Shown here in pieces: positions 4,216-54,619 of a stretch of DNA of 64,000 nucleotides; positions within the stretch are counted from its first letter, which is position 1; every line of letters begins with the position of its first letter. The stretch comes from Leucoraja erinacea (lineage: Eukaryota), in the NCBI RefSeq assembly GCF_028641065.1, contig NC_073377.1:91698001-91762000 (forward strand), given 5' to 3'. The translations under genes were made by a program, and so were the position numbers. The notes beneath the pieces are model-generated. The model ran no database searches, was not told where the DNA came from, and saw only the letters and a list, made by a program, of their open reading frames with translations.

Positions 4216-5498
4216 TGTTACGACTCCCGAATGCAGGTACTTCAGAGCCGCGTAACATAAGTCAAAAAACCAGGTTCAAGTTCAAAAATCTTTTAATTAT
4301 TCAATGGAACACAAAACCCAAACCTGATTTAAACAACCCAGTCAGGGATATGGATGGACTAACAAACAATTAAACAGTGCTCCAGCCAGCCACGTAATGG
4401 ACCGTCGAACCAGAGACTCTAAAACCTGCCTAAAGAGATATAACCCTGAAACAAAATACACAAAAACACTAAGGTCAGCCCTTATCCGTCCCAATTCAAT
4501 ATTTGTTAACAAGGAATGGTGAAAGTACACAACAAAGTTCTATGCCATGTGGCCAGGCCTTCTGCAGCTCACACCAGCAGGCTGCTCACAAGTCAGGGTC
4601 GACGAAGAAGAGAGAGAATCCTGGGAGATTCTGGTATTTAAGCTTCAGATGAGTCACCCGTCACCTGACGCAGCTTGGCCAATCGGGTACAGGAGCCTTT
4701 AACCCCGTGATTCCTGACTCACAGCCACGCCTGCACTCAGGAGAAAACAGAAACAGGTGAGTACCCTATAACACCAGCAGAGGGAGCGCGTAACACCCCC
4801 ACCCTAAGATACTGAATAAGTTTCTGAAAATGAACTAAAAAACACCACCAAATTTCAGCAACTATTCAGTAGCACAGACATCACTGGCGCGACAATGCAT
4901 CAGCCAAGACATTATCTTTGCCACGGATATGCCTGATCTCCAGGTTGTAGTCTTGCAGCTGCAAACTCCAGCTCATTAACCGCCGGTTCTTATTCTTCAT
5001 TCTCTGCAAAAATACCAAAGGATTATGATCCGTGAGTACGATGACAGGGACATTCGAGGAGCCAACATAAACCTCGAAATGATTCAGAGACATTAAAACA
5101 GCAAGGGTTTCTTTCTCAATGGTGGAGTACCACTTCTGATAACGATTAAACTTCTTAGAGAAGTACGAAACTGGATGCTCCACCCCATCTGAATCATCCT
5201 GTAGAAGAACTCCACCAGCCCCACGATCACTAGCATCCACTGCCAGCTTAAATGGACGCTCAAAATCAGGTGCCGCAAGCACAGGTGCACGCACCAGAAG
5301 ACTTTTAGTATGATCAAAGGCTTGTTGACACTCTGCGGACCACACAAAAGCTACCTTCGGACTCAGCAAATCCGTCAAAGGGGCAGCCACCGCAGAGAAA
5401 TTTGGACAGAATCCTCTATAGTACCCAACCATAGCCAGATACCTACGGAGTTCAAACAGGTGAGTACCCTATAACACCAGCAGAGGGAGCGCATAACA
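4216..5498 (-). mobile_element. Deleted LTR retrotransposon with Gmr1-like order (pol ends at RNase H)
   Basis: Full LTR 4216-4795 (TGTTAC...GTAACA), PPT 4796-4809, RT/RH ORF, 45-bp stub of second LTR 5454-5498 matching 4751-4795, TSD GTCAT at 4211-4215 and 5499-5503. Confidence 0.9.
4881..5432 (-). pseudogene. Ty3/Gypsy RT connection + RNase H domain
   Basis: GYYRGFCPNFS..AAPLTDLL, LAVDAS..G.GGVLLQ, YSTIEKE.LA, TDHNPL, GKDNVLADALSR then stop. Confidence 0.92.
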
Positions 5499-17167: not shown

Positions 17168-20100
17168 AAGTAAGTAAGTAAGTAAGTGAGTAAGTAAGTT
17201 TATTGGCCAAGAATTCACATACAAGGAATTTGCCTTGGTGCTCCACCCACAAGTAAAAACATGACATACAGTGACAGTTATGAATGACTCAGAAAACACT
17301 AAACATTAACAATAATAAAACATCAATGAAAAAACACCATTGATCAACCATGCGAACCAACTACTCTTGGATAAAAACTGTTTTTATGTCTGGCTGTGGC
17401 AGCTTTGACAGTCCAGAGTCACCTTCCAGAGGGAAGTGATTCAAAGAGTTTGTGGCCAGGGTGAGATGGGTCAGAGATGATCTTGCCCGCTTGTTTCCTG
17501 GCCCTTGCAGTGTGCAGTGTACAGTTCATCAATGGAGGGAAGGTTGTAGCCAATAACTTTCTCTGCTGATCGGATGATTCGCTGCAGCCTCCAGGTGTCA
17601 GGCTTGGTGGCTGAGTCAAACCAGACCATGATGGAGAAGATGAGGACAGACTCCACGATGGCCATATAGAATTGAACCATCATTGCCTGTGGCAGATTGT
17701 GCTTCTTCAGCTGCCGTAGGAAGTACATCCTCTGTTGTGCCTTTTTGACTGTGGAGTATGGTCCCCCACTTAAGGTCCTTGGAGATGATGGTTCCCAGGA
17801 ACTTAAAATACTCCACAGATGTGACTGTGGTGTTGTTGATGGTGAGTGGGGTGAGGGGAGGGGGAGCTCTCCTAAAGTCTACAATCAATTCCACTGTCTT
17901 AAGAGCTTTGAGCTCTATGTTGTTGCGATGGCACCAGGACGCCAGCTGTGACAATTCCTGTCTGTAGGCAGATTCCTCCCCATCCTGGATCAGTCCAATC
18001 AGGGTTGTGTCGTCCGCAAACTTGAGAAGCTTGACAGAGGTGTCTGTGGAGGTGCAGTCATTGGTGTAGAGAGAGTAGAGGAGAGGAGAGAGTATGCAAT
18101 CTTGCGGTGCTCCTATGCTGAGCGTTTGCGGGTTCGAGATGTGCTTTCCCAGCCTCACATGCTGCTTCCTGTCTGTCAGGAAGCTGGTGATCCACCAACA
18201 GAGGGGTTCAGGCACAGTCAACTCGGAAAGTTTGGCGTGTAGTAGCTCAGGCACAATGGTGTTGAATGCAGAGCTCAAATCAACAAACACGATCTTCGCA
18301 TAGGTCCCCTGGCCATCTAGGTGCTGTAGGATGAAGTGCAGGCCCAGGTTGACGGCATCATCCACAGATCTATTGGCCCGATATGCAAACTGCAGATCGT
18401 GATAATTTTCAGCTTGGCCAGCACAAGCCTTACGAGTGTCTTCATGACTACAGAGGTCAGTGCGACAGGTCTGTAGTCTTTAAGACAAGTAATCCTTGCC
18501 TTTTTGAGTACAGGGACAATAGTGGAGGCTTTGAAGCAGGCAGGGACACTACAAGTTTGTTGGGACTGGTTAAAAATGTCTATATAGAATGGTGCCAGCT
18601 GTTTGGCACAGAGCTTAAGAGTAGAGGGGGAAACATTGTCAGGTCCTGGAGATTTCTGGCTTTGTCCTCTGAAAAGCCTCTCCACCTCCTCTATTTTTAT
18701 TGTTGATATTGGATGTGATGTTTTGCAGCACAGAGGGTGTGGATGATTGGGTGTGAAGTGGAGATTGGAGGGGGTGGGTTTAGAAGGGCCCAGTCTTTGC
18801 AGACTCAGGTCAGGCTGTGAGTGGGTGTGAAGTGTTGGTTGGGGTGGGAAATGGTCCAGTCTTTTCACACTTTAAGTAGGTAGGAAGAGGTGAATGGGAA
18901 GTAAAGGGTGCAGGGTCCATTCTTTGTAGACTGGGGTCTGACAGTGTTGGTTGGGGAGGGGGGTAGGGAGTACCAGGGTTACGTTTCAGATTTTCAAACC
19001 TGTAGTAAAACTCATTCAGGTCATTGGTCAGCTGACGATTGTCAAGAGAGCGGGGGTCTTTCGTCTTGTTGCTGGTCATTTCTTGCAAGCCCTTCCAAAC
19101 TGAAGAAGAGTCACTAGCTGAGAACTTCTCAGAGTACCTTTCCTTGGCAGCTCTGATTCCTCTTCTCAGCTTGTACTTGGCCTGCCTGTAGAGGTCTGGA
19201 TCCCCGCTCCTGTAGGCCTCCTCTTTAGACTGTCGGAGCTGTCTGAGTTCTGCAGTGAACCAGGGCTTGTTGTTGTTGAACCATGTCCGAGTCTTAGTTG
19301 AATGAATGAATGAATTAATCTCTTTATTGTCATTGCACATGGTACAACAAAATTTAAAAGTCAATCCCACGGTGCGATTCACAAGAGCAATTTTAAATAT
19401 ATAAGAAAAGGTAAAAATATATACATATAAAAAAAAATTGCAGATAAATAACAATAGCAGCTGAGGTAGAACCATTTATTTGAATGTTAGTGCTATTTCT
19501 TATTTTGCATTATTAAGTTCACGTATGGCTATGGGGTAGAAGCTGTCTCTGAGTTTGTTTGTGCGAGTTTTGAAAGACCTGCACCGTCTGCCAGAGGGCA
19601 GCAGGTGGAACAGGTTGTGTCCAGGGTGGGAAGGGTCCTTCAGGATGTTGGCTGCCCTGCCAAGGCAGCGAGAGCTGAAGATGTCCTTCAGGGAAGGCAA
19701 TTGGAATGCAACTGTCCTCGCAAAAGCTGACATATGATGATACAGTGTCCGTACACTCATCAAGGCTTGTGGTTGCTTCCCTGAACACATTCCAATCCGT
19801 GCAATCAAAGTAGGATTGTAGGTTCTCAATGCTCTCACTTGTCCACCGTTTCGTTGTTCTGACCACAGGCTTAGCAGCTTTTAGTTTCTGCTTGTAGTTT
19901 GGAATAAGGTGAACTAGACAATGATCAGAGACCCAGACACGCCCAGGGAACAGAGCGATATGCGTTCTTGATTGACTTATAACAGTGATCGAGTGTTCTC
20001 TCCCCTCTGGTGGGGCAGGTAACATGAAATCTGTATTTAGGAAGGACACGGCTGAGGTTAGCTTTGTTAAATTCCCCCAAAACAATGACCATGGAGTCCA

Positions 20101-48619: not shown

Positions 48620-49182
48620 TAGAATTCTTGAGCCCGGTTGTACTAACACCAATAATTATGAAGTGCCGGAGAGATTGGTCCTTAAGCACATCAAGGCCAC
48701 TCTCCCATCAACCCTGGATCCACACCAATATGCTCACAGAGACAACAGATCAACAGAAGATGCCATTGCCACTGGCCTCCATACTGTACTGCTCCACCTG
48801 GAACAATGGGGAGCATATGCAAACTGCTATTTGTGGATTACAGCTCTGCATTCATCACAATCATACCCAGCAGACTGGTCTCCAAGCTGTCCGACCTAGG
48901 CTTCGAACATAACATCTGCCTATGGATTAAGGACTCCCTTACGGACTGGCCACAGTCAGTCAAGATGGGACCCCACCACTCCCCCACTCTGACACTCATC
49001 ACAGGAGCTCCACAAGGCTGTGTGCTGAGTCCCCTCCTCTACTCCCTCTATACATATGTTGTTGTTTCCATTGTCATTATTATTTATCTGTTATGTTGGA
49101 GCTCCGTTCGGGCAGCGCGCCTGAAATTTTGTTGTATGGTTTTACAATGACAATAAATGTATATTATTATTATTATTATTAT
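48620..49182 (+). mobile_element. Rex1-like fragment: RT N-half fused directly to 3' tail
   Basis: LDPHQYA..NRSTEDAI, LLFVDYSSAF, GAPQGCVLSPLLYSLYT, then aatgacaataaa + (ATT)n. Confidence 0.85.
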
Positions 49183-52872: not shown

Positions 52873-52880
52873 CACAAAAA

Positions 52881-53135
52881 CTAAATCCAATTCAACTCTG
52901 CCTGTTAACCTACCAAACCTACCTGGACTTACGGGAACGATGGCCCATGCTTACAGCCAGCGTGGAGAAGCAGGGCTAAATCCAGCTCAACTCTGCCTGT
53001 TAACCTACCAGGCCTGCCTGGACTTAAGGGAATGATGGCCCAGGCTTATAGCCAATGTGGAGAGTAGGGCTAAATCGAGCTCAATTCTGCTTGTCTCACT
53101 GGGTTAACCTACAGCCCTGCCTGGACTGACGGAAC
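52881..53135. repeat. ~95-bp tandem repeat, ~2.6 copies
   Basis: Units start ctaaatc at 52881, 52976, 53070; shared aactctgcctgttaacctac..cctggact. Confidence 0.88.
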
Positions 53136-53301
53136 AGCAACCCGGAGTTGTGGAGTTAGCCCTGTTTCTCCGTGCTGCCTCTCGGCGCTGCCTGTGGGCA
53201 TGGGGGCGCCGCTCCCGCCTGATTCCCGATGTCTCTGGCCGCCCCCGGATGGGGGGGGAGGGGGCACTCGGGAGGAGACGGGGATGGTCCAGTGGCGGTT
53301 T

Positions 53302-54401
53302 GGCAGCGATTGAGGCGCCGGAGTCCCAGGATCGATCATGGCTGCAGATGAGGTGCAGGTCTATGTCCATGCTGCGGCAGTGTGTTTCGCTAGTAACACA
53401 TGACCTGGGCATGTGCAGGTCATATAATACCAAACTCGCTTATTCCCTGCCCCATCTTTAGAAATGGAGAATTCTGGCTGTGCTCTGTAGTTAATGCATT
53501 TCGCATCTTTCATTGCAAGTGGCATGTATAATGTACATGTTCACTCAACACTAACAGGGCATTTAATTTAAGGTTGGCTGATTTATGAGTAATGGGCCTG
53601 TCCCACCAGCATGCGATTGCATGCGTCTAGCGCGACCAAACATGGTCGCTTGAGGCCTACGGGCCGCGCGGGGCCGGTACCACTTCGAATTGCGGAGGCG
53701 TATGGAGTTGTGCGGGGCTGGTCCCGACATCGCGCAGGGCTCCGAAAATCCTGCACTGTCCGAAAATTCCGCGCGCCAACGGCCTGTCGGCCCGCAGGCG
53801 CAATGAGGGCATACACAGCGTCTTGACAGCATATGCCTAGCGCGTGGTGTTGCGCGATGACGTCATCACCCGGCGTGCCATTGCGTGATGACGTCACCGC
53901 CCGATGCCGTGTGACGTCCAAATTCAGTTGGCACGCCTCCTGCCCAGCTGATTGGTGAGTATGATGTCGGGACCAGCTCCGCACAACTGCATACGCCTCC
54001 GTGGTTCGAAGTGGGAATGGCCCCGCGAGGCCGTACGCCTCAAGCGACCACGTTTGGTCGCGCTAGACGCATGCAATCGCATGCAATCGCATGCTGGTGG
54101 GACAGGCCCATTACTCATAAATCAGCCAACCTTAAATTAAATGCCCTGTTAGTGTTGAGTGAACATGTACATTATACATGCCACTTGCAAAGAAAGATGC
54201 AAAATGCATTAACTACAGAGCACAGCCAGAATTCTCCATTTCTAAAGATGGGGCAGGGAATAAGCGAGTTTGGTATTATATGACCTGCACATGCCCAGGT
54301 CATGTGTTACTAGCGAAACACACTGCCGCGGCATGGACATAGACCTGCACCTCATCTGCAGCCATGATCGATCCCGGGACTCCGGCGCCTCAATCGCTGC
54401 C
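53302..54401. repeat. Long inverted repeat: 291-bp arms (53302-53592 / 54111-54401) around a Harbinger-type MITE
   Basis: Arms are reverse complements with 4 mismatches seen by eye and no indels. Confidence 0.95.
53593..54110. mobile_element. Harbinger-type MITE (518 bp) with ~140-bp imperfect inverted ends
   Basis: tgggcctgtcccacc / ggtgggacaggccca; CpG-rich. Confidence 0.88.
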
Positions 54402-54619
54402 CTTAAGAAGCTAATTGGGACCTAATTTTAACACCACCATGTTCATAGTGAGAAATCAAATGGTAGGATGACTACATTTTCCATCAGTGAGATCAAAGCT
54501 GCTGCTTGGTGGATGATCCCAGTAGGTTCCTCAAGGTATTTCCAGAAGAGCTTTTTTAAATATTTTTTCCAGGGTTAAGGAGGGACAGTATAGCTGGTGG
54601 AGATGACCAGGGAACTCAG

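What the first reader, a model, noticed from the sequence alone, without database searches (positions are those of the whole stretch)
53302..54406. Fold-back inverted duplication of host flank seeded by a Harbinger MITE, with a readable template-switch junction
Seen: the 291 bp left of the MITE (53302-53592) recur inverted directly right of it (54111-54401) with 4 mismatches, three of them CpG-type transitions, while the MITE's own inverted arms are clearly more diverged. The right side starts TTA (reverse complement of the left TAA) instead of a true TAA TSD. At the far junction the sequence reads gctGCC-CT-TAA-gaagc; GCCCT|TAA resembles a family TIR end followed by the missing TSD. Inference: a nascent strand paired with the left TIR, copied the left flank backwards, then returned via GCC microhomology to the right TIR end. 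This would be a MITE-driven route to long hairpins (possible cruciform or dsRNA/siRNA source) from unique DNA.
Basis: partly seen in the sequence, partly recalled or inferred. Interest (0 to 1): 0.7.

Follow-up and report, generated by a model that had tools for sequence, protein, structure and literature searches.

The report
Transposon-primed mirror copy of flanking DNA
A 291-base stretch of ordinary DNA is repeated back-to-front on the other side of a small jumping element, likely because a copying enzyme jumped between the element's mirrored ends and briefly ran backwards; it is an unusually clear, long example of a known kind of mutation, with no sign that it does anything.

Summary
Real. 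53302-53592 recurs inverted at 54111-54401 (4 mismatches, 3 CpG-type) around a 518-bp Harbinger-derived MITE. One template switch of four-point type 3-2-1-4 accounts for every letter. It explains a 10-bp duplication in the right TIR (0 of 29 other copies) through a 7-nt microhomology, a non-consensus terminal base at both ends, zero outer-TIR mismatches (family mean 5.1), and the orphan CT+TAA at the far junction. A short-read contig of organism A bridges that junction. One contig of relative B has CCT-TAA plus the right flank without the arm, so the copy is young and the MITE older. That flip is about 9-fold above background, shows no TIR homogenisation and likely arises at insertion; it is the more novel side result. 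A second, 15-nt flank copy was found (1 of 73 other flipped-TSD loci). Expression was not tested, and no host-gene domain appears in the window's long ORFs. The scan noted similar events in other genomes (e1-9841431, e1-9965645). Known mechanism, new example.

The parts
52881..53444 (.). Older moderately repeated element that runs through the left arm boundary; intact on the left, truncated in the right arm (fixes the direction of copying)
   Evidence: family copies L003-L020 align to 52881-53446 on the left but only to about 54255-54402 on the right
53302..53592 (+). Left arm: original flank and template (switch point 3 at 53302); ends in the left TSD
   Evidence: relative D has 53283-53616 as one contig
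53590..53592 (+). Left target-site duplication TAA
53593..54110 (+). 518-bp Harbinger-derived MITE (family about 508 bp; best copies 84-90% identical)
   Evidence: end shared with transposase-bearing element L199
53593..53731 (+). Left TIR (about 138 bp); terminal base T instead of the family A
53619..53625 (-). Inferred switch point 2: 7-nt microhomology in the left TIR, 10 nt out of register
53963..54110 (-). Right TIR; inner part consensus-like and original, outer part identical to the left TIR
54070..54089 (+). 10-bp tandem duplication private to this copy; contains inferred switch point 1 (after 54084)
   Evidence: (0 of 29 other copies)
54085..54401 (-). Inferred copied tract, 317 nt = reverse complement of 53302-53618
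   Evidence: 4 mismatches over the 1601 bases 53000-54600
54111..54401 (-). Right arm: inverted duplicate of the left flank
54399..54406 (+). Return junction: GCC microhomology (54399-54401), orphan TIR tip CT (54402-54403), original right TSD TAA (54404-54406)
   Evidence: bridged by an X1 contig; B contig aligns from 54401
54407..54612 (+). Low-copy original right flank
   Evidence: X1 and X5 contigs

Best explanation
The mirror copy likely arose in one polymerase template switch primed by the MITE's inverted ends. Inferred steps, in + strand terms: (1) synthesis stopped inside the right TIR after 54084; (2) the 3' end re-paired with the complementary 7-mer in the left TIR (53619-53625), 10 nt out of register, which made the 10-bp duplication; (3) it copied 317 nt backwards through the left TIR tip, the left TSD and the left flank to 53302; (4) it returned through GCC to the last bases of the original right TIR, leaving CT plus the original TAA, and 11 nt of the old TIR end were lost. 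This is four-point type 3-2-1-4. Shown: the structure, the direction of copying, the junction in short-read contigs, absence of the arm at the junction in one contig of relative B, and the greater age of the MITE. Inferred: the switch points and the single-event history. Unresolved: intra- or inter-strand switch, and stalled fork or break repair. The product is most likely a neutral, species-level young scar.
For: A four-point rebuild matches 53000-54600 in length, with only the 4 arm mismatches (built from the window itself, so this shows consistency and is not a test). The 10-bp duplication occurs in 0 of 29 other copies and sits on a 7-nt microhomology. The outer 49 bp of the TIR pair have 0 mismatches, against a mean of 5.1 and 0 of 24 scored copies at zero (5 of 29 skipped because the right end was not parsed); the inner zone has 11, against a mean of 10.6. 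The non-consensus terminal base is at both ends here, while the orphan tip keeps the consensus T; the left-end T is also in B and C (B contig 0 differences over 54098-54200; all 6 differences of C's contig lie elsewhere), so it predates the copy. The old repeat is intact on the left and truncated on the right. X1 contig 54346-54538 has 0 differences across the junction, with more than 31 letters on each side. X5 (organism B): a 290-nt contig aligns from 54401 onward, and its first 31 letters do not fit the arm. D: one contig runs 53283-53616, 19 nt past the arm boundary without a break. A second locus, L152, has 15 exact inverted flank bases followed by a TAA.
Against: The 31 unaligned letters of B's contig were not displayed, so their identity as the TIR end is inferred; it is one contig from one sample, and the other B run (X3) had no depth at 54448-54531. 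C and D gave no contig on 54404-54612 at 89% likeness, so they do not test the junction. X1 may be the sample behind the assembly, and no listed piece spans the whole unit. The return microhomology is only 3 nt. The 10-bp duplication could be a separate slippage, with an in-register switch anywhere between about 54052 and 54109. The terminal T also occurs at one end of other copies (2 among the 50 loci listed).
Confidence: 0.85

Rival explanations
1. Transposase-initiated event: the Harbinger transposase cut one end, or two ends on sister chromatids (alternative transposition), and repair synthesis or re-insertion made the inverted duplication.
For: DDE_Tnp_4 matches are abundant in G000 (151 matches of 150 candidates scored, many with long open frames). 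Alternative transposition makes inverted duplications in maize (10.1101/2020.01.07.897926, passages).
Against: The far side keeps TIR bases (CT; CCT in B) inside the TSD, which a cut at the TSD (model in PMC4561436, passages) would not leave on the flank. No new TSD or second element copy lies at the far junction. The MITE end predates the A/D split while the arms differ by 1.4%, and its left tip was already mutated.
Confidence: 0.07
2. Assembly or library fold-back artefact.
For: Long hairpins are a classic long-read chimera product (own knowledge). No listed contig spans the whole 1.1 kb. The junction contig's depth (12.4) is half the local figure of about 25.
Against: The arms differ at 4 places, 3 of them CpG decays. 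Against relatives B and C, one change is on the right arm and two are on the left; the fourth is inferred left from X1 contigs. The junction is present with 0 differences in contigs of a public run of organism A. A chimera would not rejoin at the TIR tip plus TSD.
Confidence: 0.03
3. The whole 1.1-kb unit is one long-TIR transposon.
For: It looks like a 430-bp TIR pair.
Against: The unique half of the arm matches only the two arms among the scored candidates in G000. The left boundary cuts through an older repeat that continues leftwards. The bases outside the two arms do not form a TSD. Relatives hold the left arm and the MITE end at the same site.
Confidence: 0.01
4. Hairpin or cruciform cleavage followed by snap-back end-joining (SD-MMEJ / Pol theta type) rather than a switch at a replication fork. 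The product and junctions would be the same.
For: An 11-nt loss, short microhomologies at both switches and a templated inverted insert fit that class (search listing and abstract starts only; the rest is own knowledge).
Against: 317 nt is long for such inserts (own knowledge). Nothing in the sequence demands a break. This is a sub-case of the best explanation and cannot be separated from it by sequence.
Confidence: 0.25

Closest known systems
Four-point template switch, type 3-2-1-4 / 1-4-3-2 (Loytynoja and Goldman 2017, PMC5453318; passages); Ripley quasi-palindrome correction as cited there
   Same: Order of switch points 3-2-1-4, reverse-complement 2->3 fragment, creation of an inverted repeat; this type is 31% of 794 human-chimp events in that paper.
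   Different: The copied fragment is 317 nt (that paper filters at 14 bp and addresses small mutation clusters), and the switch points lie about 460 nt apart, in the two TIRs of a transposon. That study focused on unique regions and has no hit for 'transpos' in its main text.
Template-switch origin of hairpins and miRNAs (10.1101/2023.04.19.537475; passages)
   Same: One-step creation of a long perfect stem from unstructured flank.
   Different: Their miRNA-like stems are 30-55 nt, and repeat-overlapping events were excluded from their polymorphism data. Here the stem is about 430 bp and no transcription is shown.
mPing-facilitated inversion by template switching in rice (PMC5724284; passages)
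   Same: A Harbinger-class MITE provides the homology for a replication template switch.
   Different: That is a large inversion between three clustered copies; here one copy duplicates its own flank.
Ac/Ds alternative-transposition inverted duplications and Mu killer (10.1101/2020.01.07.897926; passages)
   Same: A transposon-associated inverted duplication with potential for dsRNA.
   Different: Those need transposase and two elements or chromatids, show new TSDs, span kb to Mb and have demonstrated siRNAs. None of that is seen here.
PIF/Harbinger (Tourist-like) MITEs (PMC13668399, passages; PMC4561436, first part and passages)
   Same: TIRs, a 3-bp TWA TSD, no coding capacity, and a related DDE_Tnp_4 element in the genome.
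   Different: 28% of strict-end copies have non-matching TWA TSDs; the cited screen discards elements without identical 3-bp flanks.

Membership tests
Four-point template switch 3-2-1-4 | Inserted fragment is the reverse complement of nearby sequence | tested here: met
   54085-54401 = reverse complement of 53302-53618 with 4 mismatches
Four-point template switch 3-2-1-4 | Ancestral state lacks the fragment and is collinear on both sides | tested here: met
   B has the left flank plus TIR tip, and the right flank from 54401 without the arm; single contig, upstream letters not displayed
Four-point template switch 3-2-1-4 | Point 4 lies downstream of point 1 on the original template | tested here: met
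   Against the family majority, synthesis leaves inside the right TIR and resumes at its last 2 bases; 11 nt are lost in the out-of-register reading
Four-point template switch 3-2-1-4 | Arises in a single replication event at one fork | not testable with these tools
   Sequence cannot separate a fork switch from repair synthesis
PIF/Harbinger MITE | 3-bp TWA target-site duplication | tested here: met
   155 direct TAA/TAA or TTA/TTA loci; one TAC/TAC copy; 59 loci with a flipped middle base
PIF/Harbinger MITE | TIRs, short, non-coding, many copies | tested here: met
   About 138-bp TIRs; 5175 first-look candidates, 40 scored; no Pfam hit for the two long frames across it
PIF/Harbinger MITE | Ends shared with an element encoding a DDE_Tnp_4 transposase | tested here: met
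   L199 (1 of 20 transposase loci fetched): first 282 nt 83% identical to the MITE end; 451-aa PF13359 frame (E 1.3e-33) between facing TIR motifs; its TSD is not intact on one side
PIF/Harbinger MITE | Partner Myb/SANT (MADF) gene in the autonomous element | tested here: inconclusive
   No Pfam hit in 6 other frames of L199; the element looks interrupted by other repeats, and spliced or short frames were not scanned
Alternative-transposition inverted duplication (Ac/Ds type) | New TSD and a transposon end at the distal breakpoint | tested here: not met
   The distal junction holds only 2 TIR bases and the ORIGINAL TSD
Killer-type siRNA locus (Mu killer, Ac killer) | Transcription through the inverted repeat, dsRNA and siRNA | not tested
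   No RNA run was laid; both lay calls went to genomic contigs
Long-TIR (Foldback-like) element | Whole unit repeated at other loci with its own TSD | tested here: not met

The most novel reading that the evidence does not exclude
Harbinger-type MITEs leave two readable records in this genome. Their TIRs recurrently prime backward copying of host flank (15 nt and 291 nt so far), a transposase-free route from unique DNA to long palindromes. And 28% of insertions carry a TSD whose middle base is flipped on one side, which would be genome-scale evidence that Harbinger ends carry the donor's 3-nt overhang into the new site, piggyBac-style, instead of having both TSD copies templated by the target.
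Probability: 0.4. Interest if true: 0.62.

Novelty: new member of a known kind. Interest (0 to 1): 0.4.

Why it matters
As one locus it matters little: a likely neutral scar, with no host-gene domain found in the window's long ORFs. Its value is as a fully readable natural case, with an outgroup, of a 300-nt template switch primed by a transposon's two ends, a class that surveys of unique sequence leave out. If this is general, MITE-rich genomes gain long palindromes (and, where transcribed, dsRNA substrates) without transposase. The side result is directly testable and bears on an open mechanistic question, how PIF/Harbinger ends are joined to the target. It also means that TE annotation requiring identical TSDs would discard about a quarter of real insertions of this family.

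Tried and rejected
Empty site: none seen; no joints were listed, and the MITE's left end is present in B, C and D. Zygosity in X1: the junction contig has depth 12.4 against about 25 locally, but no second allele was listed and contig depths did not add up in B either, so this is inconclusive. C and D gave no contig on the right flank at 89% likeness; a hole proves nothing. The first lay (2.5 kb at 82%) was swamped by high-copy repeats, so its joint and loose-end tables were uninformative. Expression: no RNA holder of note was listed and none was laid. The idea that flipped TSDs are short versions of the same hairpin copying was tested and not supported: no TIR homogenisation (mean 3.5 against 4.0 mismatches at positions 14-30, 73 flipped against 41 direct, p=0.52), no age difference (p=0.92 and 0.56 in the two largest families), and no general excess of complementarity beyond the TSD. 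A-run slippage as the cause of flips was rejected: the +1 flank base is not A-enriched (15 of 114 against 14 of 82 ends), and SINE-site insertions show a clean substitution. Re-reading flipped copies as TA- or TTAA-TSD elements was rejected because they occur in the same families and share the same flank preference as direct copies. Host gene: 38 of 41 ORFs of 120 aa or more were scanned (3 near the N stretch left out); the hits were retroelement domains plus one ALKBH8_N hit beside an RT frame. Short exons would be missed, so an intronic position is not excluded. The RNA fold (-972 kcal/mol, no shuffles) only restates the complementarity. 19 of 20 transposase loci fetched showed no match to this MITE.

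Full report
Observation. The sequence and the repeat scan show one inverted pair, 53302-53625 / 54078-54401, 99% complementary, which continues inward as more diverged TIRs. Global alignment gives 291-bp outer arms with 4 mismatches, three of them CpG-type. The genome G000 is 2.19 Gb in 1769 contigs; earlier scan notes call it a skate (not checked by me).

The MITE family. A search with the MITE gave 5175 candidates; the 40 scored include full-length copies at 84-90% identity. The 29 other copies fetched have the majority ends TWA-AGGGCC...GGCCCT-TWA. One of 20 transposase loci fetched (L199) starts with 282 nt that are 83% identical to the MITE end and holds a 451-aa DDE_Tnp_4 frame between facing TIR motifs. 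No Myb/SANT frame was found in the 6 other frames scanned. I file the MITE as PIF/Harbinger-derived on the TSD, the TIRs and this link.

Marks private to this copy. (a) Both ends have a non-consensus terminal base (T left, A right), while the orphan tip at 54403 has the consensus T. (b) The right TIR has a 10-bp tandem duplication, seen in 0 of 29 other copies. (c) The outer 49 bp of the two TIRs are otherwise identical, against a mean of 5.1 mismatches and none at zero among 24 copies scored (5 skipped); the inner 88 bp differ at 11 places, like the family mean of 10.6. So the outer right TIR was overwritten from the left one, and the switch lies distal to about 54051. A 7-nt word at 54078-54084 is complementary to 53619-53625, 10 nt out of register. 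Taking 53000-54084, then the reverse complement of 53302-53618 (317 nt), then 54402 onward reproduces the observed length with only the 4 arm mismatches. This rebuild uses the window itself, so it shows that one event suffices, not that it happened that way; an in-register switch plus separate slippage also fits.

Direction. The outer half of the arm belongs to an older repeat whose copies align leftwards to about 52880, whereas the right arm holds only the cut-off piece. The left is therefore the template.

Reads and relatives. One search listed 24 runs, 20 holding part of the stretch. In organism A (X1) a 193-nt contig covers 54346-54538 with no difference and bridges the far junction; X1 may be the assembly's own sample, and no listed piece spans the whole unit. 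In organism B (X5, about 91% of the run read) one contig matches 54098-54200 exactly, which is the left TIR tip and flank read on the other strand. A 290-nt contig aligns from 54401 (CCT-TAA onward) to 54612 with 8 differences, and its first 31 letters do not fit the arm; they were not displayed. That is the predicted ancestral filled site, on one contig. In D one contig runs 53283-53616 (19 differences, 5 gaps), through the arm boundary and into the TIR, so the MITE is older than the A/D split and the arm looks single. In C the arm contig's depth (42) is close to that of low-copy flank (46-47), a weak hint. C and D gave no right-flank contig. B and C carry the left arm's base at 54201 and the right arm's base at 54191, and C carries the right arm's base at 54330; X1's arm contig carries the ancestral base at all three. 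So both arms changed after the copy and some differences are likely polymorphic: the event is young.

How general. Exact-pattern counts in G000 (13-bp ends, gap 474-490): direct TSD 155, TAA..TTA 44, TTA..TAA 15, middle base C or G 16. A copy that runs through the TSD must flip it, so I fetched all 59 flipped loci and the 18 TAA..TTA loci at gap 491-500 (which includes the window), plus 61 of the 155 direct loci and all 16 controls. Three loci were dropped as duplicates. Exact inverted extension of 12 or more bases beyond the TSD occurs in 2 of 74 flipped loci (the window and L152), 0 of 61 direct and 0 of 16 control loci. L152 (G000:C1251:130698-131219) has 15 exact bases including the TSD, followed by TAA; its left flank is single in G000, and the direction of copying is ambiguous. 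Flank copying is therefore recurrent but rare, of the order of 1 in 200 of these copies. Earlier unreviewed notes describe like events in other genomes; they are leads, not support.

Side result. Allowing A or T at all eight end positions gives 234 loci, so only 20 loci have an A/T change at the six other positions, against 59 at the two middle positions (about 9-fold per position; binomial p 3e-20), with a 44:15 asymmetry (p 2e-4). Eight fetched copies sit in the same site of a SINE. The uninterrupted site reads TTA in 11 and TAA in 0 of 26 matches, yet 7 of the 8 insertions have TAA on one side (the sample is enriched for flipped copies by design). So these are true insertions with one changed base. 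Flipped copies are neither older nor more homogenised than direct ones, which argues against late hairpin copying. The best inference is change at insertion. PMC4561436 (first part and passages read; supplements not opened) proposes staggered cleavage within the TSD with 5' overhangs; the element end would then carry a donor TWA overhang that anneals to the target's with a possible middle mismatch. That extension is my inference. Paper searches (open-access library only; most hits seen as listings) showed no report of such a genomic excess, and searches showed none of a MITE copying its own flank; older subscription literature on transposon-induced inverted duplications is not covered.

Function. 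The RNA fold is a stem of about 430 bp by construction. Pfam found retroelement domains, plus one ALKBH8_N hit beside an RT frame, in 38 of the window's 41 long ORFs. No RNA was laid. There is no evidence of function.

Verdict. It is a new, unusually long and legible member of the known four-point template-switch class (PMC5453318, passages), primed by a transposon's ends. Interest 0.4, part of it for the flipped-TSD lead.

Noticed in passing
G000 genome-wide; loci L051-L080, L127-L155, L180-L193, L214-L216: 59 of 214 strict-end Harbinger MITE copies have non-matching TSDs (44 TAA..TTA, 15 TTA..TAA), about 9-fold above A/T changes at neighbouring positions, with no age or TIR-homogenisation signal; likely set at insertion by a donor-derived overhang.
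   Followed up: partly
L152 = G000:C1251:130698-131219: Second MITE with an inverted copy of its own flank: 15 exact bases (18 of 19), then a TAA that could be the orphan TSD; not checked in reads.
   Followed up: partly
L199:706-5640 (G000:C1:167488100-167497500): Harbinger element of about 4.9 kb with an open 451-aa DDE_Tnp_4 frame and a left end 83% identical to the MITE; likely parent lineage. One TSD is not intact and no Myb/SANT frame was found.
   Followed up: partly
window 54346-54538 in run X1: Junction contig depth is half the local figure, and two short contigs of the arm's outer end with one difference each were listed; the duplication may be heterozygous or segregating.
   Followed up: partly
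L027:2549-3501: Another inverted pair, 261 nt at 95% with 391 nt between, in a repeat-like stretch with a purine-rich end; possibly a head-to-head retroelement insertion like those in earlier notes on this genome.
   Followed up: no
G000:C1:10484856, C5:50114585, C33:15667454: Copies in which the TIR start recurs about 47 nt inside the element at an internal TAA (nested insertion or terminal duplication), seen in the listings.
   Followed up: no
window 52874-53132: Three degenerate 95-bp direct repeats, with internal inverted similarity, in the older repeat left of the arm.
   Followed up: no
window 4881-5468, 17471-18479, 48686-49150: Retroelement remnants: an RT-RNase H domain and two RVT_1 frames, with an ALKBH8_N Pfam hit next to one of them.
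   Followed up: no
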